Positions 38,640 to 51,652 of a stretch of 64,000 nucleotides of DNA are shown one piece after another. This DNA comes from a virus. The stretch covers positions 19,722 to 83,721 of IMG/VR virus record IMGVR_UViG_3300042900_000549; one strand, 5' to 3'. The notes below the pieces were generated by a model. The model saw only the letters and a program-made list of their open reading frames with translations, was not told where the DNA came from and ran no database searches. Numbering within the stretch: the first letter of the stretch is position 1; each line of letters starts with the position of its first letter. A program made the translations under genes and the position numbers.

Positions 38640-38757
38640 TCACATTGCTCCCGTGCTTACCGAGACTTTGCACGATAAATACGTCTCTCATATCTTCTCT
38701 AGGGGTGAGAAGAAATACTGATCCTATTCGTCTCCCTACGAATTATTACTTAACCCT
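38640..38757 (+). ncRNA. PhotoRC-II-like psbA leader RNA
   Basis: ACCGAGAC...GTCTCTCATATC...AGGGGTG...TCCCT blocks directly upstream of phage psbA. Confidence 0.7.
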
Positions 38758-38766
38758 TTTTTACAA

Positions 38767-39777
38767 ATGACTGCTACAATTGCTACACGCTCTAATACTA
38801 ATCTATGGAATGATTTCTGTTCCTGGATTACTTCAACGAATAACAGGTTATATGTTGGGTGGTTCGGAGTCCTTATGATTCCCTGCCTTCTCGCAGCGAC
38901 TACTTGCTTCATTATTGCTTTTATTGGTGCTCCCCCTGTTGATATTGATGGGATCAGAGAACCAGTTGCTGGGTCTCTTATGTACGGAAACAACATCATC
39001 TCTGGTGCCGTTGTTCCTTCTTCTAATGCTATCGGACTTCACTTTTATCCTATCTGGGAAGCAGCAAGTCTTGATGAATGGCTCTATAATGGTGGTCCTT
39101 TTCAACTTGTTGTATTTCACTTCCTCATCGGCATTTATGCTTATATGGGTCGTGAATGGGAACTCTCCTATCGTCTAGGAATGCGTCCCTGGATTATGGT
39201 TGCTTACAGTGCTCCTGTTGCTGCTGCTACTGCCGTATTCCTAGTCTATCCCTTTGGTCAAGGTTCTTTCTCTGATGCTATGCCTCTTGGAATTTCTGGA
39301 ACCTTTAATTATATGCTTGTCTTCCAGGCAGAACATAACATCCTTATGCACCCCTTTCACATGTTAGGCGTCGCAGGTGTCTTCGGCGGATCACTTTTTA
39401 GCGCCATGCACGGTTCACTGGTGACTTCTTCACTGGTTCGTGAGACTACTGAAACTGAATCCCAAAACTACGGATATAAGTTCGGTCAAGAAGAAGAGAC
39501 TTACAACATTGTTGCTGCACACGGTTACTTCGGTCGTCTTATTTTCCAATATGCGTCTTTCAATAACTCACGCAGTCTCCACTTCTTTCTGGCTGCCTGG
39601 CCAGTAGTTGGTATTTGGTTTACTGCTCTTGGCGTAAGCACAATGGCATTTAATCTGAACGGTTTTAATTTTAACCAGTCCATCGTTGATAGTCAAAACC
39701 GAGTAGTTCCTACTTGGGCGGACATTTTAACACGAGCAGGATTGGGTATGGAAGTGATGCACGAAAGGAACGCACAT
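38767..39777 (+). CDS. psbA: Photosystem II D1 protein, exon 1
   Basis: D1 sequence up to [10 protein letters not shown]; the frame is interrupted by an intron. Confidence 0.97.
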
Positions 39778-40017
39778 TAGTAAAATAGTGTCCTTACTGA
39801 GAAATTGGTAAGTGTAAATCGGATGAATTGCTGGAAACCCTCCAAATATAAGGGCAATCAGCATCCAAGTCTCAGATACATCTGAGAAAGGTTCAACGAC
39901 TACCTGAGGGATATAGTTCCCTTAATAACAGGCAAGAGCGTCCGACACCTAAGTTCTAATAGAATACGGTGATGATATAGTCTTCTCCATAAGAATGGTA
40001 AACTTATGGGTCCAGAG
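39778..40017 (+). mobile_element. Group I intron (240 nt, no ORF) in psbA
   Basis: Exon ends in U that pairs with G in P1; P AATTGCTGGAAA, Q AATCAGCA, R TCAACGACTA, S GATATAGTC; terminal G; splicing restores NAH-NFPLDLA. Confidence 0.93.
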
Positions 40018-40086
40018 AACTTTCCTTTAGATCTTGCATTTTTAGAATCAACCCCAGTTGCTCTAACGGCACCTACAGTAGGTTGA
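40018..40086 (+). CDS. psbA: Photosystem II D1 protein, exon 2
   Basis: NFPLDLAFLESTPVALTAPTVG*; spliced protein is 359 aa. Confidence 0.93.
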   Translation, partial: NFPLDLAFLESTPVALTAPTVG

Positions 40087-40114
40087 TATAACTTCCAACT
40101 AATGGTATAATATT

Positions 40115-40149
40115 GAGGAACTCTTCGGGGTTCCTTTTTTGTATAAATA
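40115..40149 (+). terminator. psbA terminator followed by a late promoter
   Basis: AGGAACTC-TTCG-GGGTTCCT plus T run; TATAAATA at 40142. Confidence 0.8.
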
Positions 40150-40178
40150 ACTATAGCACTAACTTTGGATTAGAAGTA

Positions 40179-40913
40179 ATGAAAAATGTATTTTACACTT
40201 ATGCTTATTTGAGGGAGGATGGAACTCCTTATTATATTGGTAAGGGTAAAGGTAAAAGAGCATATGATAGAAAAAGGCATAGTGCTTATGTCCCATCAAG
40301 AAATAGGATTTTAATATTAAAGAAAAATCTTACTGAAGATGAAGCATTTATTCACGAAATTTATATGATTTCAATCTTTGGTAGAAAAGATTTGGAAACT
40401 GGTATTCTTTATAATCTAACAGATGGTGGAGATGGACCTTCTGGATATGTTTATACAGAAGAACAAAGGAAAAAAATGGGAGATATGCGTAGAGGAAAGA
40501 AGAGACCAAGACAAAGTAAGATTATGAAGGAAAAAAATCATTTACAAATAGTGAATGAAAATAAAATAAACGAATTGAGAAAAAATTGTCCACCAGAAAA
40601 AATTGCTGAACTTTATATTGAGGGTAAAACTCTTAGAGAAATAAAATCAATTTTGGGATGTGGGATGGTTTGGATTAGAAAATCATTGGATGAAATGGAA
40701 GTTAAAATAAGACATAGAAACGACTATGGAAATCCTATGAACGACAAAGAAGTTAGAGATAAAATTTCTCAAAAAGCAATAGAAAGAGGTGCTTGGTCTG
40801 GGGATAAAAATCCAAATTCAGGGGAAGGTATTTGTAGGGATAAAATAATACAAAGAACAAAAGAAGTAAATACTGGAAAACAAAATTGGAAGTATAGGAA
40901 ACCTAAAAACTAA
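40179..40913 (+). CDS. Free-standing GIY-YIG homing endonuclease with NUMOD3-like and HTH regions
   Basis: [40 protein letters not shown]. Confidence 0.82.
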
Positions 40914-40914
40914 A

Positions 40915-40983
40915 ATGCTAATAATCCTCACAGTCTTCCAAGTATTCGGATTCTTCCTCTTCATAATGTCTCTGCTCTCTTGA
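40915..40983 (+). CDS. Very small hydrophobic peptide (22 aa)
   Basis: MLIILTVFQVFGFFLFIMSLLS; diverged copy at 45862. Confidence 0.4.
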   Translation: MLIILTVFQVFGFFLFIMSLLS

Positions 40984-41034
40984 CGCCATTCAATAAGACT
41001 GCTATAATACGCACAAAGACACAAAACAATTATG
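40979..41034 (+). repeat. Promoter/leader direct repeat, copy 1
   Basis: TTGACGCCATTCAATAAGACTGCTATAATACGCACAAAGACACAAAACAATTATG. Confidence 0.85.
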
Positions 41035-41799
41035 ACTGAATTCACACAAGAACAAGTAGAAGAATTTAATAAATGCAAAAATGACCCAGTATATTTCATT
41101 AACAATTATGTGAAATTTGTAACTATTGATAAGGGACTCACAGACTTCAAACTCTATCCCTATCAAGAAGACCTGATTAATAAGTATCATAACAACCGCT
41201 TCAATATATGTAAAAGTTCAAGACAAGTAGGTAAAACTTCAACTGGTCTCTTCTATGTTTTACATCACATAATTTTTAATGATAATGTGACTGATGGGAT
41301 ATTCTCCTTTAATACATTAAATGCTCGTAATAGTTTACAAAGATTAATGACTGCTTATGAAAATCTTCCAGAATGGATGCAACATAAGGTTATCATTAAG
41401 AATAAGTCCACATTAGAATTGGAGAATGGTTCTAGAGTTATTGTAGGTAATACAACATATAATAGTTTCAAGGGTCGGATGTTTAATCTTACCTTCCTAG
41501 ATGAGTTTGCATTTGTTCCAGATAAAGATGCACAGAGCGTAGTAGATATAATGCTCCCTATGTTTACTGCAAATAAATCTAGTAAAGTCGTCATTGCATC
41601 TTCATTTAAACCTAAAGATAACTGCTTCAATAAAATCTGGAAAGACTCTGAAGATGGTAAGAATTCTTTTGTAAGAACTACAATCAAATGGTATGAGATT
41701 CCAGGGAGGGATGAAGAATGGAAAGAACAGATGATTGCTAATATAGGTATTGATGCCTGGAATCAGGAATTTGAATGTGAGTCTGCAGAGAACCCTTGA
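41032..41799 (+). CDS. Terminase large subunit (gp17) paralog, ATPase domain only
   Basis: KCKNDPVYF, LYPYQ, SRQVGKT, FLDEFAFV; ends at QEFECE. Confidence 0.85.
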   Translation: MTEFTQEQVEEFNKCKNDPVYFINNYVKFVTIDKGLTDFKLYPYQEDLINKYHNNRFNICKSSRQVGKTSTGLFYVLHHIIFNDNVTDGIFSFNTLNARNSLQRLMTAYENLPEWMQHKVIIKNKSTLELENGSRVIVGNTTYNSFKGRMFNLTFLDEFAFVPDKDAQSVVDIMLPMFTANKSSKVVIASSFKPKDNCFNKIWKDSEDGKNSFVRTTIKWYEIPGRDEEWKEQMIANIGIDAWNQEFECESAENP

Positions 41800-41849
41800 C
41801 GCCATTCAATAAGACGCCTATAATACTCACAAAGTCGCAAAACATTATG
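41795..41849 (+). repeat. Promoter/leader direct repeat, copy 2
   Basis: TTGACGCCATTCAATAAGACGCCTATAATACTCACAAAGTCGCAAAACATTATG. Confidence 0.85.
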
Positions 41850-42065
41850 AAAGCAACAGAATTTTGCTATTGGTTACAGGGTTATTTTGAACTGGACCAG
41901 GCATCCTCAAAACCTGGGAACTCCCTCTCAGACGAGCAAGTAGAGGTCATTCGGAGGCATCTTGCACTAGTCTTTAAGCACGACATTGACCCACAAGCAG
42001 GACCATCAAAATATCAGGCAGCGTTGAATGATATTCATGGTGGTAATGGAATGTATAGGTGTTGA
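41847..42065 (+). CDS. Hypothetical protein
   Basis: MKATEFCYWLQGYFEL...IRRHLALVF. Confidence 0.7.
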   Translation: MKATEFCYWLQGYFELDQASSKPGNSLSDEQVEVIRRHLALVFKHDIDPQAGPSKYQAALNDIHGGNGMYRC

Positions 42066-42077
42066 TAAAAATTAATT

Positions 42078-42437
42078 ATGGATTGGTTAGAACCCCTTAG
42101 ACAAGATACTGAAAGAATCCGCCAGGAAAACATAAAAATCAGAGAAGAGACTGAAAAACTTAGAGAGAGTAACCGAAAACTTAAAGAATTAAATCAAAAC
42201 CCAGAAAGACTATCAAAAATCGTTGAAAAGACAACTATGACTGAAAAAACATTTGACCCAAACCCAACAACTGAATGTGTAGCAAAAGAACCTACAGAAA
42301 GTCAGATTAGAAAGCGTATGGAATTAACTCAAGAAAGTTATTATACTGCTAGAGAAAATCTCCGAGAAGAAGCATACAAAACAACACATAGCAAACCACC
42401 AGGACAATCTTGGGGGGATTACTGGAAAAGTTATTGA
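42078..42437 (+). CDS. Hypothetical protein with a coiled-coil N-terminus
   Basis: ORF; possible internal start at MTEKTFDP. Confidence 0.55.
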   Translation: MDWLEPLRQDTERIRQENIKIREETEKLRESNRKLKELNQNPERLSKIVEKTTMTEKTFDPNPTTECVAKEPTESQIRKRMELTQESYYTARENLREEAYKTTHSKPPGQSWGDYWKSY

Positions 42438-43156: not shown

Positions 43157-43933
43157 ATGGAAGAACTTTCAGAATTATTTAAAATAGTTGCAGAAGAAAA
43201 GAAAAAGAAAAAACTAGAGATGGAATCTTTAGTTGGTGATTCTTTTGAAAAACTTTTTATTGAGCAACTGAAACCTAAAAAGAAAAAAAATATTCTAAAG
43301 AAAATACAAGAACCCCAAATTGTTGAAGTAATAGAAGTAAAAAAAGATACTTTAATAGAAAAATCATTAGGTCTTCTTTCAGAACCCTCGGAAGTTAAAC
43401 AGCAAACTGATCCCTTAACACCACTAGATCAAAACTTTGCAACACTTGATGATTTACAAAAGCATTATAGCACTTTCCTGTCTCGTATTCAGCAACAACT
43501 CTCTACAGTAGGTGGAGGTGGTGAAACTCGTCTTGAGTTCTTGGATGATATTGATAGGAACTCTGCAAAGACTGATAATTACTTTCTCAAATATGATGCA
43601 ACGCTCAATAAGTGGATAGGAGATCCTGCTGATGGCGTAGGTATTACAAGTATTGTATCCATTGCAGGAGTTACTACATACTATCAAGCAAATGCTGCTG
43701 ATGATTATATTGGTGTAAGTGCTAATGTTCCTGTGACGATTGTATTACCACAAATACCTTCTTATGGTAAAAAACTGATTGTAAAAGATGAGGGAAATCG
43801 AATAAATACATATAATATTACAGTTCAAGCAGGTATTGGTAAGAGTGTCGAGAATGATATTTCAGTCATTATGAGTAGCAATCACCAATCCTTTAGTTTT
43901 TTCTATAATGGTTCCAACTGGTATATCGTATAA
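43157..43933 (+). CDS. Virion structural protein
   Basis: Late promoter at 43129; QQQLSTVGGGGE motif; C-terminal DDYIGV..IVKDE..NGSNWY fibre-type module. Confidence 0.7.
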   Translation: MEELSELFKIVAEEKKKKKLEMESLVGDSFEKLFIEQLKPKKKKNILKKIQEPQIVEVIEVKKDTLIEKSLGLLSEPSEVKQQTDPLTPLDQNFATLDDLQKHYSTFLSRIQQQLSTVGGGGETRLEFLDDIDRNSAKTDNYFLKYDATLNKWIGDPADGVGITSIVSIAGVTTYYQANAADDYIGVSANVPVTIVLPQIPSYGKKLIVKDEGNRINTYNITVQAGIGKSVENDISVIMSSNHQSFSFFYNGSNWYIV

Positions 43934-45849
43934 TGTCTTATAATCCTCTTCCACAACCAGCAGATGTAGTAGTTAATACAGGGGTATCTACAAGTCCTGT
44001 AAGTTTTTCCAATCCATTTCCAGTATCTCTTGGTTCTTCCAATATTACAATTACTGGTGATGTAAATGTAGGTACAACAGTATCAGTCACAAGTACTCCA
44101 CAAGACCCAGTTCATACGCACATCACAGAAGTTGGTTCAAGTGGTATTTTAGAGGATGAAAATATTCCTTATCTTCCAGTTGGCATTTCCTCATTACTGA
44201 ATACTGTATCAATCTCAAATACAAGTTTTTATATTCTAAATCCAGTTACTTCGGTAACCGTAGGAGGAACTGTATCAATTGCTAATACAGTATCAATCTC
44301 AAATACAAGTTTTTATATAACCAACCCGGTTACATCAGTAACTGTAGGTGGAACTGTATCAATTGCTAATACAGTATCAATCTCTAACACTTCATTCTAC
44401 ATAACCAATCCAGTCACTACAGTTGCAGTATCAGGTATTGGTTCTACAGTCACAGTTCAGGGAACAGTAGGAATTGGAACAACAGGGCAAGTATCACTCA
44501 ACCTTAATAGTGCTCCTGTAAGTTCTAGTAATCCCCTACCAGTCACAGGAAATATTGGATTGAGTTCATCTGGAAATATTGTAAGAGTTGGTCTTGGAAC
44601 CACAACTATTGAATTGGTAGATAACAATAAACCATTTCCAGTTTATCTTGCAAATATAACGGCAACAAGTAAAAGAAGATTGGAAATTTCTACATACGAA
44701 ACTAATTTCTTTAATACATTCCAATTCAATAAAGAAACTGATGTTTGGGATGAAAGAGTATCTATTGGAGGAAATTCAATTCATATTCCAACATTAAGTG
44801 GAATTGGAATGTCTGTAACTTCTTCTGCTGGTTCTGAAGTCATTCGTCAAACCAGAAATGTAATGAAATACATTCCCGGTAGAGATTGTGATTTAGCATT
44901 TGCAATTAGATTAACAAATCCTGTTATTGGAGTTCGTAGAAGATTTGGATTATTTGATGAAAATGATGGTATTTACTTTGAGGATGGTGGAGATGGTGAT
45001 TATTATTGTTGTGTAAGAAATAGTAATGGTGCATCTGCAGGTATTGGGACGACTACACTAACTAGAATTCCTCGTAGTCAATGGAATGGAGACAAATTAG
45101 ATGGTAATGGCGTAAGTCGAATTACTGCAGATCCTGATGCTCAACAAATAGTTAATTTTCATTATGAATGGTATGGTGCAGGAAGAATTGAATATCAATT
45201 TGTTATTGATGGAACAATACACACGATTCATACTATAGATAATGCGAACAAATTAAAAGGTCCTTGGTGTGCAACTCCATTTTTACCAATTAGATGTGAA
45301 ATTACCAACGTAACTGGTGCTGCAGGAACTCACTATCTTTATCAGGGTTCTAATTCATTAACCACTAATGGACTTCAAACTAAATCAGGAATTGCTGGTA
45401 ATATTTCATCTCCAATTACAGGTACAGATCTTGGTTCTTCCTATACTTTTACGCCAGTTTTAAGTATTCGTCTTAAGACAATAGCACTTAAAGGTATTGT
45501 ATTACCTACATTCTTTCAAGTTGCTACTGTTGATAATACTAATTTATTTTACAGATTAATAAGAAATGCCCCACTTACAAATCCAGTTTGGGTAGATAAT
45601 CCAGATCCCAATGGATTTACCCAATATGATGTTTCGGCTTCGGGAATAGGAACAACTGGTGTAATAATTGATTCTGGATTTTTTATTACTGGTGGTGGTG
45701 CAGCAGCAATTGCATTAGACAAAGAAACCATCTATCAAATTGGTAGGAGTGGAATTGGAACTATTAGTGATACATTTACAATTGCTTGCGCGTCTGCAAT
45801 TTCAAATAAAAATGCAGTTGCTGCTCTTACTTGGATTGAGCAGAGGTGA
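43933..45849 (+). CDS. Virion structural or fibre-like protein
   Basis: Val/Thr/Ser-rich repeats, GIGT motifs, lectin-like C-terminal domain (EWYGAG, PFLPIR). Confidence 0.7.
   Translation: MSYNPLPQPADVVVNTGVSTSPVSFSNPFPVSLGSSNITITGDVNVGTTVSVTSTPQDPVHTHITEVGSSGILEDENIPYLPVGISSLLNTVSISNTSFYILNPVTSVTVGGTVSIANTVSISNTSFYITNPVTSVTVGGTVSIANTVSISNTSFYITNPVTTVAVSGIGSTVTVQGTVGIGTTGQVSLNLNSAPVSSSNPLPVTGNIGLSSSGNIVRVGLGTTTIELVDNNKPFPVYLANITATSKRRLEISTYETNFFNTFQFNKETDVWDERVSIGGNSIHIPTLSGIGMSVTSSAGSEVIRQTRNVMKYIPGRDCDLAFAIRLTNPVIGVRRRFGLFDENDGIYFEDGGDGDYYCCVRNSNGASAGIGTTTLTRIPRSQWNGDKLDGNGVSRITADPDAQQIVNFHYEWYGAGRIEYQFVIDGTIHTIHTIDNANKLKGPWCATPFLPIRCEITNVTGAAGTHYLYQGSNSLTTNGLQTKSGIAGNISSPITGTDLGSSYTFTPVLSIRLKTIALKGIVLPTFFQVATVDNTNLFYRLIRNAPLTNPVWVDNPDPNGFTQYDVSASGIGTTGVIIDSGFFITGGGAAAIALDKETIYQIGRSGIGTISDTFTIACASAISNKNAVAALTWIEQR
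44200..44418 (+). repeat. 84-bp (28-aa) coding tandem repeat, about 2.6 copies
   Basis: NTVSISNTSFYIxNPVTSVTVGGTVSIA repeated. Confidence 0.85.
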
Positions 45850-45982
45850 GTAGGTAATTAAATCCTCGCAGCATTCATAGCATTCGGATTCTTCCTCTTT
45901 CTAATGTCTTTGCTATAATATCTTCCTCTGGTCTTTACAAAAACTCACAAGTACCCTATACTGGTAAAAAGATTTCAAAAAA

Positions 45983-50881: not shown

Positions 50882-51652
50882 ATGACAAGAAGAAAAAGAA
50901 CCAATCAAGATACTCAGTCTGTTGGCGGTGTTCCTATGACTACGAAACATATGAAGCGTAGAAAACCATTAAACTCTGATTTACTTTTAGATGTTCAACC
51001 TCTAACAGATAATCAAGGAAAACTATTTGAATCCTATGATGAAGGTAAGCACATTGTTGCTTATGGAGCAGCTGGAACTGGTAAAACTTTTATCGTTCTC
51101 TACAATGCACTCAAAGATGTTCTTAATGATAGGACACCTTATGATAAAATATACATCATTAGGTCTTTAGTGCAGACTCGCGAAATTGGATTCTTGCCAG
51201 GTAATCACGAAGATAAATCAGCACTCTTTGAAATACCATATAAAAATATGGTAAAATATATGTTCCAACTGCCGTCTGAAGATGAGTTTGAGATGCTATA
51301 CGGCAATCTTAAATCTCAAGGTACTATTTCTTTTTGGTCTTCTTCTTTCTTAAGAGGAACTACTTTTGATAATTGCATTCTTATTGTGGACGAATTCCAA
51401 AATATGAATGGACACGAAAATGATTCTATCATCACTCGTGTTGGCGAAAACTGTAAAATTATGTTCTGTGGTGATGCTTCGCAGAGTGATTTAGTGCGAC
51501 AGAATGAGAGAAATGGAATTCACGATTTTATAAAAATTCTTCAAATTATGCCATCATTTGATTTTATTGAATTTGGTATTGAAGACGTATGCAGAAGTGG
51601 ATTGGTTAAAGAGTACTTAATTGCAAAACATTCCTTAAATATTACCATATAA
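50882..51652 (+). CDS. phoH: PhoH-family ATPase
   Basis: GAAGTGKT, IGFLPG, RGTT, DEFQN, GDASQSD. Confidence 0.95.
   Translation: MTRRKRTNQDTQSVGGVPMTTKHMKRRKPLNSDLLLDVQPLTDNQGKLFESYDEGKHIVAYGAAGTGKTFIVLYNALKDVLNDRTPYDKIYIIRSLVQTREIGFLPGNHEDKSALFEIPYKNMVKYMFQLPSEDEFEMLYGNLKSQGTISFWSSSFLRGTTFDNCILIVDEFQNMNGHENDSIITRVGENCKIMFCGDASQSDLVRQNERNGIHDFIKILQIMPSFDFIEFGIEDVCRSGLVKEYLIAKHSLNITI

What the first reader, a model, noticed from the sequence alone, without database searches (positions are those of the whole stretch)
41032..41799. Stand-alone terminase ATPase domain behind an early-type promoter
Seen: this 255-aa ORF keeps the gp17 adenine-binding (LYPYQ), Walker A (SRQVGKT) and Walker B (FLDEFAF) motifs. 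It stops right after QEFECE, at the ATPase-nuclease hinge. The coupling motif region reads ASSF rather than the usual STP. It lies outside the head operon behind TTGACG-17-TATAAT. Known: Avs-family antiviral STAND NTPases recognise phage large terminases. Inference: the clean domain boundary and intact frame suggest a repurposed paralog, such as a defence decoy, a packaging inhibitor against co-infecting phages, or an early ATP-binding regulator.
Basis: partly seen in the sequence, partly recalled or inferred. Interest (0 to 1): 0.7.

Follow-up and report, generated by a model that had tools for sequence, protein, structure and literature searches.

The report
Nuclease-less terminase ATPase paralogue in cyanophage
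A lake cyanophage carries an intact extra gene that is only the ATP-burning half of its DNA-packaging enzyme, one member of a conserved, fast-evolving family that sits next to the photosynthesis gene psbA and whose job is still unknown.

Summary
ORF 41032-41799 (255 aa) is a T4-type large-terminase ATPase domain. It has the adenine-binding, Walker A and Walker B/catalytic residues and ends at the equivalent of T4 gp17 residue ~360. A TTGACG-17-TATAAT promoter lies upstream.

It is not a relic. It belongs to one well-supported clade of 48 stand-alone proteins. Members at 56% identity or more are 247-360 aa and lack a nuclease domain. Every longer relative listed is 54% or less and is a full gp17.

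In 4 of 4 related viral records of 58 kb or more, a stand-alone copy coexists with one full-length terminase. The window's own record is only 43% complete and holds none.

dN/dS is 0.14-0.40, against 0.02-0.09 for gp17. Catalytic residues are kept, while the coupling-motif surroundings and a conserved arginine are relaxed. Members are recombination mosaics. The gene is bracketed by a 50-nt duplicated promoter and lies just downstream of psbA, which here has a group I intron and a homing endonuclease.

Function is unproven. My best guess is a non-translocating ATP switch that acts on packaging partners. The decoy idea is weakened by published data that the ATPase domain alone activates Avs2 and Upx. 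T4 vs.8 is a distant precedent. First-reader notes from this scan flagged similar genes in other genomes.

The parts
41032..41799 (+). Stand-alone gp17-type ATPase-domain gene (255 aa), equivalent to T4 gp17 residues ~100-360
   Evidence: ORF listed. Terminase_6N E 1.4e-13. phrog_5989 E 2.7e-52. Aligned to T4 gp17.
41152..41166 (+). Adenine-binding motif LYPYQ (residues 41-45). Q45 = T4 Q143.
   Evidence: Q45 is invariant in 38 of 38 family rows.
41218..41238 (+). Walker A SRQVGKT (residues 63-69). R64 = T4 R162, K68 = T4 K166.
   Evidence: G67 and K68 are invariant and R64 is at least 90% conserved in the 38-row alignment.
41500..41505 (+). Walker B Asp and catalytic Glu (D157, E158 = T4 D255, E256)
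   Evidence: E158 is invariant and D157 is at least 90% conserved.
41596..41607 (+). Degenerate coupling motif ASSF (residues 189-192 = T4 T285-P288)
   Evidence: S190 is conserved in both groups, while P192, G194 and N197 of gp17 are not kept in the stand-alone clade.
41719..41778 (+). C-terminal subdomain-II stretch WKEQMIANIGIDAWNQEFEC (residues 230-249 = T4 335-354). It is part of the most conserved portion of the family.
40980..41008 (+). Sigma-70-type promoter TTGACG-17-TATAAT, 23 nt upstream of the ATG
   Evidence: 11 of 12 match, TG before the -10.
40979..41028 (.). Copy 1 of the 50-nt direct repeat (promoter plus leader)
   Evidence: family D4. The 20-nt core is found exactly twice in the window, against 0.01 expected.
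41795..41844 (.). Copy 2 of the 50-nt direct repeat (90% identical). It holds the promoter of the next ORF. The paralogue's TGA stop lies inside its -35 hexamer.
   Evidence: The other reading frame gives LDAIQ*, which is the tail of homologues P0001, P0002 and P0020.
40915..40983 (+). Context: 22-codon hydrophobic mini-ORF (MLIILTVFQVFGFFLFIMSLLS) whose TGA stop also lies in the -35 of promoter copy 1. It overlaps a 54-nt repeat (40923-40976, also at 45861-45914).
   Evidence: Similar peptides occur in ORFs upstream of the paralogue in L169 and L174.
40113..40913 (+). Context: free-standing homing-endonuclease-like gene between psbA and the paralogue
   Evidence: phrog_314 homing endonuclease E 1.3e-10 and phrog_15526 E 1.1e-31. 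87% identical to the gene at the same place in L004.
39768..40001 (+). Context: group I intron in psbA
   Evidence: Rfam RF00028, 88.2 bits, E 2.2e-22.

Best explanation
SHOWN: what the gene is.
- It is a real, selectively maintained, nuclease-less paralogue of the T4-type large terminase.
- It comprises ATPase subdomain I plus subdomain II of gp17, cut at the natural N360 boundary.
- It belongs to one old clade of stand-alone proteins in uncultured T4-like cyanophages.
- In related records it is carried in addition to a normal full-length gp17.

INFERRED from residue conservation: what it can and cannot do.
- It still binds and hydrolyses ATP. The adenine-binding Gln, the Walker A Lys and Arg, and the Walker B Asp and catalytic Glu are all kept.
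- It can neither cut nor translocate DNA. It has no nuclease/translocation domain. The residues following the coupling motif are free to vary. The conserved Arg 11 residues upstream of the catalytic Glu is not kept.

INFERRED, least secure: how it acts.
- It works as an ATP-dependent switch through protein contacts inherited from gp17.
- The main contact would be the strongly conserved C-terminal subdomain-II stretch. In T4 this region holds the portal-interacting helix-loop-helix.
- It would thereby occupy or modulate a partner of the packaging motor (portal clip, small terminase or gp17 itself).
- Whether the target is the phage's own motor (timing control) or that of co-infecting rivals (exclusion) is open.

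Expression and spread.
- The gene is transcribed from a host-type (early) promoter.
- It is a promoter-bracketed cassette in the variable island next to psbA. It evolves fast and by segment swapping.
For: IDENTITY
- Pfam Terminase_6N and no Terminase_6C.
- Alignment to the T4 gp17 structures and sequence.

FAMILY
- 34 proteins of 247-360 aa are 56-90% identical to the ORF, and none has a nuclease domain.
- All of the best 120 longer relatives are 51-54% identical and carry both terminase domains.
- All 48 stand-alone rows form one clade in a 94-row tree (SH-aLRT 100). All 20 form one clade in a 44-row mixture-model tree (100/99).

AN EXTRA COPY, NOT A SPLIT GENE
- Records G001 (58 kb), G002 (161 kb), G003 (139 kb) and G004 (250 kb, terminal repeats, 100% complete) each have two Terminase_6N matches.
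- Each has a single Terminase_6C match, lying in the long 562- or 704-aa frame.

SELECTION
- dN/dS is 0.14-0.40 in 13 of 13 pairs.
- For comparison: 0.016-0.093 in the 9 gp17 ATPase-part pairs that gave a value (2 of the 11 were too saturated), 0.10 for the neighbouring endonuclease and 0.056 for psbA.

RESIDUE PATTERN (48 stand-alone against 46 gp17 rows)
- Kept in both groups: Q45, R64, G67, D157, E158, S190.
- At least 90% in gp17 but under 60% in the stand-alone clade: the position of window K147 (= T4 R245), P192, G194, N197 and 7 others.
- The last ~55 residues are the best-conserved part of the family.

LITERATURE (T4 head review PMC9958956; passages read)
- Coupling-motif mutants hydrolyse one ATP without turnover.
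- The portal-interacting residues lie in a helix-loop-helix by the hinge.
- A peptide of that helix-loop-helix inhibits in vitro packaging.

CASSETTE AND PROMOTER.
MOSAICISM.
Against: - No structure or complex prediction could be run, so no binding is shown.
- Packaging is a late event, while the promoter is of the early, host-RNA-polymerase type.
- An early-type promoter at the same spot (10 of 12 or better) is seen in only 3 of 11 loci examined. One relative (L222) has a late-like TATAAAT upstream instead.
- The conserved C-terminal stretch differs from gp17 in sequence (IGIDAWN against TSE.QFK). Its partner may therefore no longer be the portal.
- The window's own record holds no gp17, portal or small terminase. 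Coexistence with a full gp17 is inferred from relatives.
- That window K147 (= T4 R245) corresponds to a trans-acting arginine finger is my recollection from other terminases. It was not checked here.
Confidence: 0.4

Rival explanations
1. An ATP-dependent early protein with a new role unrelated to packaging. Examples would be a regulator of transcription, replication or host takeover, like other orphan early ATPases such as T4 vs.8. Only the fold would be inherited from gp17.
For: - It has an early-type promoter and lies among non-packaging genes.
- Family-specific residues sit in the conserved C-terminal stretch.
- Many members carry a highly conserved ~55-aa foreign N-terminal extension with no Pfam hit.
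- T4 keeps a terminase-ATPase-like orphan (vs.8) in an early region.
Against: - No new partner or domain points to a particular process.
- No conserved neighbour gene was found. The only recurrent neighbour shares just a short coiled-coil N-terminus, in 4 of 11 loci.
- The best-conserved part of the family is the same region that gp17 uses near the hinge.
Confidence: 0.25
2. A hitch-hiking selfish cassette. The gene persists mainly because it sits beside the psbA intron and homing-endonuclease hotspot and between duplicated promoters. It would spread by co-conversion and cassette recombination, with little benefit to the phage.
For: - psbA lies just upstream in 5 of 5 core-family loci that have flanks: window, L004, L169, L171/L174 and L222.
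- A group I intron and an endonuclease are present here.
- 50-nt direct repeats bracket the gene.
- Members are mosaics.
- Constraint is 3-10 times weaker than on gp17.
- There is a weak hint of a form lacking the gene. One contig in each of 2 of the 4 laid lake runs joins 41034 to 42078, with only 30 letters on the shorter side.
Against: - dN/dS stays at 0.14-0.40 over divergences down to 31-39% identity between the most distant members.
- Catalytic residues are invariant.
- No frameshift or internal stop is seen in the 48 sequences used.
- The family has a single old origin with a long stem.
- The distant subfamilies (L181, L184, L221, L179, L189, L214) are not next to psbA within 4.5 kb.
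Confidence: 0.15
3. A defence decoy or sponge. The early-made ATPase domain would bind host sensors of the large terminase (Avs1-3, Upx) and blunt them before the real gp17 appears.
For: - The promoter is of the early type.
- The family shows fast, mosaic evolution typical of conflict genes.
- The ATPase domain is the part that EcAvs2 and Upx recognise (PMC13601566).
Against: - In the same paper, the ATPase domain alone strongly activated EcAvs2 for 5 of 5 terminases. It also sufficed to activate all three Upx homologues.
- T4 vs.8 was toxic with EcAvs2.
- An early stand-alone domain should therefore fire such abortive-infection sensors sooner.
- Conservation of the catalytic Glu is not explained by simple sponging.
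- I did not test whether the hosts carry such sensors.
Confidence: 0.12
4. The N-terminal half of a split (fractured) terminase. The ATPase and nuclease would be made separately and joined or assembled, and this would be the phage's only large terminase.
For: - gp17 genes really are broken at this exact point in other phages. L215 and L216 encode an N-part ending QEFE|C plus a short intein piece, then an endonuclease gene, then an intein-C plus nuclease part. This matches the fractured terminase of Dassa et al. 2009 (PMC2677866).
- An endonuclease gene is adjacent here.
- The window's record lacks a gp17.
Against: - There is no intein fragment. Family tails read ...EFEC followed by K, EF(L), KFLGS and the like, which continue the gp17 sequence itself.
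- There is no nuclease half downstream or anywhere in the 83.7-kb record.
- 4 of 4 long related records have an intact full-length terminase as well.
- The endonuclease lies upstream, not between two halves.
Confidence: 0.03

Closest known systems
T4 gp17 N-terminal ATPase domain (N360; PDB 2O0H, 3CPE, 3EZK)
   Same: - Same fold family (Terminase_6N).
- Same adenine-binding, Walker A, Walker B and catalytic residues.
- Same C-terminal boundary, at about residue 360.
   Different: - Here the domain is a natural, separate gene.
- It lacks the first ~100 residues of T4 gp17, which is about 18 residues of cyanophage gp17.
- The P..G..N after motif III is lost, and T4 R245 is Lys here.
- Identity to T4 gp17 is 30%.
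Cyanomyovirus gp17 (full-length large terminase, 545-571 aa)
   Same: This is the closest full-length relative: 49-54% identity over residues 3-250.
   Different: - gp17 carries the Terminase_6C nuclease domain and the N-terminal YLGNPLLKKAN segment.
- It evolves at dN/dS 0.02-0.09.
- It lies in the packaging and tail gene block.
T4 vs.8 (219 aa; orphan terminase-ATPase-like protein noted by Evans et al. 2026, PMC13601566)
   Same: - A stand-alone terminase-ATPase-like protein with Walker A and B motifs.
- Encoded far from the packaging genes of a T4-type phage.
- Function unknown.
   Different: - Only a remote relative: BLASTP E 0.083; profile comparison E 6e-4 at 29% probability over 110 columns.
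- A different PHROG (phrog_1488 against phrog_5989).
- vs.8 ends about 35 residues after Walker B, so it lacks motif III and subdomain II.
- I did not see the paper's supplementary figures on vs.8.
Fractured gp17 with a split intein (Dassa et al. 2009, PMC2677866; loci L215 and L216 here)
   Same: - A separate ORF holding only the ATPase domain.
- It ends at the same EFE|C point.
- A free-standing endonuclease gene lies nearby.
   Different: - Those ORFs end with an intein N-fragment.
- They are followed by an endonuclease gene and then an intein-C plus nuclease ORF.
- This family has neither feature, and it coexists with an intact gp17.
PeSL promoter-terminator cassettes of T4-like phages (Arbiol et al. 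2010, PMC2839356; Comeau et al. 2014, PMC4122927)
   Same: Repeated early-promoter elements bracket a variable gene in a plastic region. This gives homology for cassette gain, loss or swapping.
   Different: - No stem-loop or terminator half was found at either copy.
- The 2014 paper does not mention cyanophages: 0 occurrences of the word.
- I saw only the search listing for the 2010 paper and one passage of the 2014 paper.

Membership tests
T4-type large terminase (gp17/TerL) | N-terminal ASCE ATPase domain (Pfam Terminase_6N) | tested here: met
   E 1.4e-13, 51.4 bits against a cut-off of 22.
T4-type large terminase (gp17/TerL) | Walker A Lys, Walker B Asp, catalytic Glu and adenine-binding Gln | tested here: met
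   K68, D157, E158 and Q45 align to T4 K166, D255, E256 and Q143. They are invariant or at least 90% conserved in the family.
T4-type large terminase (gp17/TerL) | Coupling motif III with its conserved surroundings ((S/T)(S/T)TP.G..N) | tested here: not met
   The window reads ASSFKPKDN. Only the central Ser is conserved. P192, G194 and N197 are at least 90% conserved in gp17 but under 60% in the stand-alone clade.
T4-type large terminase (gp17/TerL) | C-terminal RNase-H-like nuclease/translocation domain (Pfam Terminase_6C) | tested here: not met
   There is no hit in the protein and none anywhere in the 83.7-kb record at E of 1 or less.
Stand-alone gp17-ATPase clade (this family; best PHROG phrog_5989) | Groups with the other nuclease-less homologues to the exclusion of full-length gp17 | tested here: met
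   One clade of 48 of 48 rows, SH-aLRT 100. One clade of 20 of 20 rows, 100/99. The nearest row is P0001 at 90% identity.
Stand-alone gp17-ATPase clade (this family; best PHROG phrog_5989) | Ends within about 12 residues after the EFEC motif, with no nuclease domain | tested here: met
   The window ends ...QEFECESAENP. Most of the 40 homologue sequences read end within about 12 residues after ...EFEC, but not all: P0012 (360 aa) runs on for about 90 residues, P0032 about 19, P0015 about 15, and P0019 stops before the motif. The 34 hits at 56% identity or more carry PF03237 only or no Pfam domain, never PF17289.
Fractured gp17 (split-intein gene in pieces) | Intein N-fragment after EFE, then a downstream endonuclease and an intein-C plus nuclease ORF | tested here: not met
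   The tail is CESAENP, not C(V)xGDT as in L215 and L216. The downstream ORFs are small proteins of unknown function. No Terminase_6C is found.
T4 vs.8 family (phrog_1488) | Sequence membership | tested here: not met
   The window protein does not hit phrog_1488, while vs.8 does at E 1.3e-78. Pairwise E is 0.083 and hhalign probability is 29%.
PeSL-type mobile regulatory cassette | Repeated early promoter flanking a variable ORF | tested here: met
   50-nt repeat, 90% identical, at 40979-41028 and 41795-41844. The core is found exactly twice, against 0.01 expected. Both copies are 11 of 12 promoter matches.
PeSL-type mobile regulatory cassette | Stem-loop (terminator) joined to the promoter | tested here: not met
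   No terminator-like site is listed between 40230 and 42940.
Anti-Avs/Upx decoy | Binds the host terminase sensor without activating it | not testable with these tools
   Only literature bears on this. The ATPase domain alone activates EcAvs2 and Upx (PMC13601566).

The most novel reading that the evidence does not exclude
The family is a weapon or governor of the packaging step.

- It would be an early-made, ATP-switched 'headless' terminase subunit. It would dock through its conserved subdomain-II surface onto portals, small terminases or gp17 rings, and so block or time DNA packaging.
- The most provocative version is that it blocks packaging by co-infecting rival cyanophages.
- Its mosaic, fast-evolving middle segments would then record an arms race between phages.
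- Its linkage to the psbA homing hotspot would let it spread during the same co-infections.
Probability: 0.2. Interest if true: 0.8.

Novelty: new variant of a known kind. Interest (0 to 1): 0.55.

Why it matters
Large terminases are treated as single-copy hallmark genes of tailed phages. They are used as phylogenetic markers and are targets of host pattern-recognition immunity.

This is a conserved, widespread, nuclease-less second copy. It keeps its ATP site but has shed the parts that couple hydrolysis to DNA movement. That shows the motor's 'engine' has been re-used for something else, at least once, in cyanophages.

T4's vs.8 appears to be a second, far more diverged case.

If the protein acts on the packaging machinery, it would be a new kind of phage-encoded packaging regulator or inter-phage exclusion factor.

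If it is seen by Avs2- or Upx-type sensors, it changes which infection stage those sensors can report.

In practice, these short genes can contaminate terminase-based surveys and trees.

Tried and rejected
1. Second Terminase_6N hit in the window (ORF 50882-51652). It is PhoH (phrog_170, E 9.4e-96) and has no similarity to the ORF. Dismissed.

2. Idea that the ~55-aa N-terminal extension of many homologues is the fused end of the gene upstream of gp17.
- A tblastn alignment of P0007 ran through that region in phage S-H9-2.
- Direct comparison gave E 0.13. Rejected.
- The extension has no Pfam hit and is absent from the window.

3. Idea that the family was captured from 'classic' cyanomyoviruses.
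- Stand-alone proteins are more identical to classic gp17 than to the gp17 of their own carriers. The window protein and the G001-type members score 45-53% against 33-40% for G001; the G003/G004-type members score about 35-36% against 32-33% for their own gp17.
- The trees do not support a donor. The quick tree puts the clade beside the carriers' gp17 (SH-aLRT 87).
- The careful tree leaves it in a polytomy, with the carriers' gp17 nested inside the classic clade (97/96).
- The origin is left unresolved.

4. Metagenome scan. It gave no DNA for close family members.

5. Two degenerate-pattern scans of IMG/VR.
- Together they gave DNA for 14 stand-alone loci (L175 and L085 duplicate L004; L171 and L174 give the same protein).
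- Core family: L004/L175, L169, L171/L174, L222, L189.
- More distant stand-alone groups: L181, L184, L221, L179, L195, L214, L211.

6. Conserved partner gene. None was found. The only recurrent neighbour shares just a coiled-coil N-terminus.

7. RNA evidence. No RNA holder was listed. The 20 holders are lake-water metagenome DNA runs, and all are flagged as possible sources of this DNA.

8. Read laying. No letter differences were listed inside the ORF in the four runs. The joint 41034 to 42078 has only 30 letters on its short side, so it is a hint only.

9. Literature.
- Searches found no paper describing this cyanophage family.
- The search for 'vs.8' with 'bacteriophage T4' and 'terminase' found nothing.

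10. The protein-atlas search. It listed only terminase-ATPase clusters, and no structure is held.

11. The 50%-identity representative search. It collapses the core family to one representative (P0009, 460 bits). The next hit scores 298 bits.
Full report
WHAT IS THERE

The window is part of an 83,721-base IMG/VR viral record that is estimated 43% complete. The record is a T4-like cyanophage. It encodes:
- gp43-type DNA polymerase, a DnaB/gp41-type helicase, NrdA, and baseplate and virion proteins;
- PhoH;
- psbA preceded by a PhotoRC-II RNA motif and interrupted by a group I intron.

The ORF 41032-41799 encodes 255 residues.
- Pfam gives Terminase_6N (E 1.4e-13) and nothing for the nuclease domain.
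- The best PHROG is phrog_5989, 'terminase large subunit' (E 2.7e-52).
- phmmer against PDB sequences aligns residues 2-226 to T4 gp17 residues 100-321.

A MAFFT alignment with T4 gp17 places the residues as follows:
- Y44/Q45 on Y142/Q143
- R64 on R162
- K68 on K166
- D157/E158 on D255/E256
- A189-S190-S191 on T285-T286-T287
- C249 on A354, and the fifth residue after it (N254) on T359

The protein therefore ends at the boundary of the experimentally defined N360 ATPase domain. Compared with cyanophage gp17 it also lacks about 18 N-terminal residues (the YLGNPLLKKAN segment).

PROMOTER AND CASSETTE

TTGACG-17-TATAAT lies at 40980-41008 (11 of 12). The same promoter and leader recur at 41795-41844 as a 50-nt direct repeat that is 90% identical. 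Its 20-nt core occurs exactly twice in 64 kb, against 0.01 expected.

The paralogue's TGA stop is the TGA inside the second TTGACG. In another frame the same bases read LDAIQ-stop. That is exactly the C-terminal tail of homologues P0001, P0002 and P0020. I infer two things from this:
- those genes are followed by the same promoter;
- the residues after ...EFEC are dictated by the promoter, not by protein function.

Upstream, a 22-codon hydrophobic mini-ORF (40915-40983) also ends in the -35 of the first copy.

Overall the region has no excess of promoter-like sites (40 against 34.2 +/- 4.9). However, the four 11/12 matches on the + strand each precede one of four consecutive genes. An equally placed early-type promoter (10 of 12 or better, about 51 nt upstream of the start) is seen in 3 of 11 loci examined: window, L169 and L174.

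A FAMILY, NOT A RELIC

A search restricted to 140-447 aa found 480 proteins at E of 0.001 or less among 701 candidates.
- The 34 hits with 56-90% identity are 247-360 aa.
- They carry only Terminase_6N or no Pfam domain.
- Most of those read end within about 12 residues after ...EFEC; exceptions are P0012 (about 90 residues further), P0032, P0015 and P0019, which stops before the motif.

The search for longer proteins (448-2000 aa; 8000 candidates scored) listed 120 proteins. All were 51-54% identical and all carried both terminase domains. There is thus a clean gap. Everything closer than about 55% is nuclease-less.

Among 50,697 cultured or deposited phage records, 2,701 matched. All were below 60%, and the best matches were ordinary gp17 genes at about 52%. 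The same held for queries with P0007 and with the distant member from L221.

IMG/VR pattern scans gave DNA for the following:
- core-family loci L004/L175, L169, L171/L174, L222 and L189;
- more distant stand-alone groups L181, L184, L221, L179 and L195 (249-258 aa) and L214 and L211 (361 aa, with a non-nuclease tail).

All 48 stand-alone rows form one clade in a 94-row tree (SH-aLRT 100, stem 0.34). All 20 form one clade in a 44-row LG+C20 tree (100/99, stem 0.38).

The clade's position relative to gp17 lineages is unresolved. This is so even though the proteins are more identical to classic cyanomyovirus gp17 than to the gp17 of the G001-type carriers.

AN EXTRA COPY

- The window's record has no full-length terminase, but it is incomplete.
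- Records G001 (58 kb), G002 (161 kb), G003 (139 kb) and G004 (250 kb, terminal repeats, 100% complete) hold a stand-alone member. Each also has exactly one more Terminase_6N match, in a 562- or 704-aa open frame. That frame holds the record's only Terminase_6C match.
- The G001 frame reads as a normal 560-aa gp17.
- Two short records (G005, 17% complete; G006, 10%) show only the stand-alone copy.

So coexistence holds in 4 of 4 records long enough to judge. For this phage it is inferred.

SELECTION AND WHAT IS CONSERVED

Nei-Gojobori dN/dS is 0.14-0.40 in 13 of 13 pairs. That includes unsaturated pairs: L169-L171 at 0.31, and the L181 group at 0.14-0.40.

Comparison values:
- the ATPase part of classic gp17 gives 0.016-0.093 in 9 pairs (2 further pairs were too saturated);
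- psbA gives 0.056;
- the adjacent endonuclease gives 0.10.

For the same genome pair (window against L004), the paralogue has dN 0.214 at dS 0.81. The endonuclease has dN 0.062 at dS 0.64.

Column conservation was compared for 48 stand-alone and 46 gp17 rows.
- Kept in both groups: Q45, R64, G67, D157, E158 and S190, plus fold residues. K68 and E158 are invariant in the 38-row family alignment.
- At least 90% in gp17 but under 60% in the stand-alone clade: the position of window K147 (T4 R245), P192, G194 and N197 after motif III, and K94, A98, T141, T177, G181, R226 and D227.
- Some subfamilies have a one-residue insertion in Walker A (APRQVAGKS) or a ~20-residue insertion after motif III.
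- The best-conserved part of the family is the last ~55 residues (KIWKDSEDGKN.FVRT.IKW.EIPG...EWKE.MIANIGIDAWN.EFEC). This corresponds to T4 residues ~295-354.

Members are mosaics:
- window against P0020: 87-97% identical at both ends, 23-30% in the middle;
- P0007 against P0016: 90-100% at the ends, 33-40% in the middle.

CONTEXT

psbA lies just upstream in 5 of 5 core-family loci with flanks: window, L004, L169, L171/L174 and L222.
- L004 has the same endonuclease (87% identical) in between.
- L174 has a psbD-like gene after the paralogue (358 aa, 31% identical to PsbA; called psbD in earlier first-reader notes of this scan).
- The six distant loci are not psbA-linked within 4.5 kb.

No partner gene is conserved.

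The stretch is held by 20 lake-water metagenome runs, all flagged as possible sources. No RNA run was listed. In 2 of the 4 runs laid, one contig joins 41034 to 42078 and skips the paralogue and the next ORF. Only 30 letters lie on the short side, so I treat this as a weak hint of presence/absence polymorphism.

HOW IT LIKELY WORKS

Shown:
- the domain content;
- the retained catalytic residues;
- the lost nuclease domain;
- the relaxed coupling region;
- purifying but weakened selection;
- mosaicism;
- cassette structure;
- coexistence with gp17 in relatives.

From the T4 head review (PMC9958956; passages read):
- motif III mutants hydrolyse one ATP without turnover;
- subdomain II is the 'transmission' to the C-domain;
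- the portal-interacting residues lie in a helix-loop-helix by the hinge;
- a peptide of that helix-loop-helix inhibits in vitro packaging.

Inference: the protein can bind and probably hydrolyse ATP, but it cannot translocate or cut DNA. Its most constrained surface is the region gp17 uses next to the hinge. The most economical mechanism is therefore an ATP-dependent switch that occupies or modulates a partner of the motor. Whether it does this for self-timing or against co-infecting phages is open.

My assignment of T4 R245 as the equivalent of a trans-acting arginine finger is recalled from work on other terminases. It was not checked here.

RIVALS

(a) A new role unrelated to packaging (0.25).

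(b) A hitch-hiking cassette at the psbA homing hotspot (0.15).

(c) A decoy for terminase sensors (0.12). Evans et al. 2026 (PMC13601566; passages read) show that the ATPase domain alone activates EcAvs2 (5 of 5 terminases) and all three Upx homologues tested. They also show that T4 vs.8 is toxic with EcAvs2. This argues that an early stand-alone domain would trigger rather than mask such sensors.

(d) Half of a split terminase (0.03).
- gp17 genes broken at exactly EFE|C exist. L215 and L216 have an N-part with a short intein piece, an endonuclease gene, and an intein-C plus nuclease part. These match the fractured terminase of Dassa et al. 2009 (PMC2677866).
- This family has no intein fragment. 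Its tails continue the gp17 sequence (ECKFLGS, ECEFL...).
- Intact gp17 coexists with it.

COMPARISON WITH THE KNOWN, AND NOVELTY

- T4 vs.8 (219 aa) is the only published orphan terminase-ATPase-like protein I found. It is only remotely related and lacks motif III and subdomain II.
- PeSL cassettes (PMC2839356 and PMC4122927; listing and one passage) resemble the duplicated promoter. The stem-loop half is absent here.
- My eight literature searches found no description of this cyanophage family.
- First-reader notes of this scan had flagged the same kind of gene in other genomes. Those notes are unchecked, but they agree with what I found in L171/L174 and in the members with an N-terminal extension.

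I class it as a new variant of a known kind.

As a result:
- no DNA was obtained for the closest homologues;
- no model was made;
- no binding test was done.

Noticed in passing
window 38640-40913: psbA is preceded by a PhotoRC-II RNA motif (38640-38726, 57.9 bits). It is split by a group I intron (39768-40001, 88.2 bits) after ...HERNAH. A free-standing endonuclease-like gene (40113-40913) follows. From memory, this arrangement resembles the psbA intron plus F-CphI endonuclease of phage S-PM2.
   Followed up: partly
window 40915-40983 and 45861-45914: A 22-codon hydrophobic mini-ORF (MLIILTVFQVFGFFLFIMSLLS) overlaps a 54-nt repeat, which recurs at 83% identity after the 638-aa virion gene. 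Similar peptides lie upstream of the paralogue in L169 and L174. Contig depth in the 40922-41015 bin is roughly 1.5-2 times that of the flanks in the lake runs (clearest in X10, X16 and X14).
   Followed up: partly
L215 1584-4231 (-) and L216 7623-10268 (+): Two 'fractured' gp17 genes. Each has an ATPase part (293 or 297 aa) ending QEFE|C plus a ~35-aa intein N-piece, then an endonuclease gene (196 or 218 aa), then an intein-C plus nuclease part (383 or 368 aa). This is the arrangement Dassa et al. 2009 reported for one terminase locus.
   Followed up: partly
L187 6685-7911 (-): A 588-aa-frame gp17 whose match to the query is interrupted by about 470 nt right after the Walker A lysine (query residue 69). 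It may be an intein or another insertion at the P-loop.
   Followed up: no
G001 (loci L235/L236), portal gene: The Portal_T4 match is split between profile positions 277 and 278 by about 148 residues, inside one 728-aa open frame. This is probably an intein in the portal gene.
   Followed up: no
L004 941-4623 and L169 11782-13070: psbA of these relatives appears in three and two pieces respectively. The gaps are about 1.6 kb and 1.3 kb in L004 and about 0.2 kb in L169. This suggests one or two introns, some large enough to hold an ORF.
   Followed up: no
homologues P0006, P0007, P0009, P0011, P0013, P0015, P0016, P0018, P0021-P0023, P0034; L004 5845-6000: Many family members carry a ~55-aa N-terminal extension (MKPLNTDMNAQRWAKEFVELHGGDEDLM...). 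It is better conserved than the ATPase body (82% between P0007 and L004). It has no Pfam hit and no counterpart in the window.
   Followed up: partly
window 42078-42437; L221, L184 downstream ORFs: The ORF two genes downstream of the paralogue shares a coiled-coil N-terminus (..WLEP..ERI..E..) with the ORF at the same relative position in the distant subfamily loci L184 and L221. The rest of these proteins differs.
   Followed up: partly
window 44200-44451: Three tandem 84-nt repeats (87% and 64% identity to the first copy) lie inside the 638-aa virion structural gene 43933-45849.
   Followed up: no
G002, G003, G004 (loci L223-L225): The full-length terminase of these 139-250-kb phages lies in a 704-aa open frame, about 150 residues longer than cyanomyovirus gp17. 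The extra part was not examined.
   Followed up: no
window 41034 / 42078: In 2 of the 4 lake runs laid (X9 at depth 5.8, X16 at depth 17.7), one contig joins the paralogue's start codon region directly to the start of ORF 42078, skipping 1,043 bases. Only 30 letters lie on the short side.
   Followed up: partly
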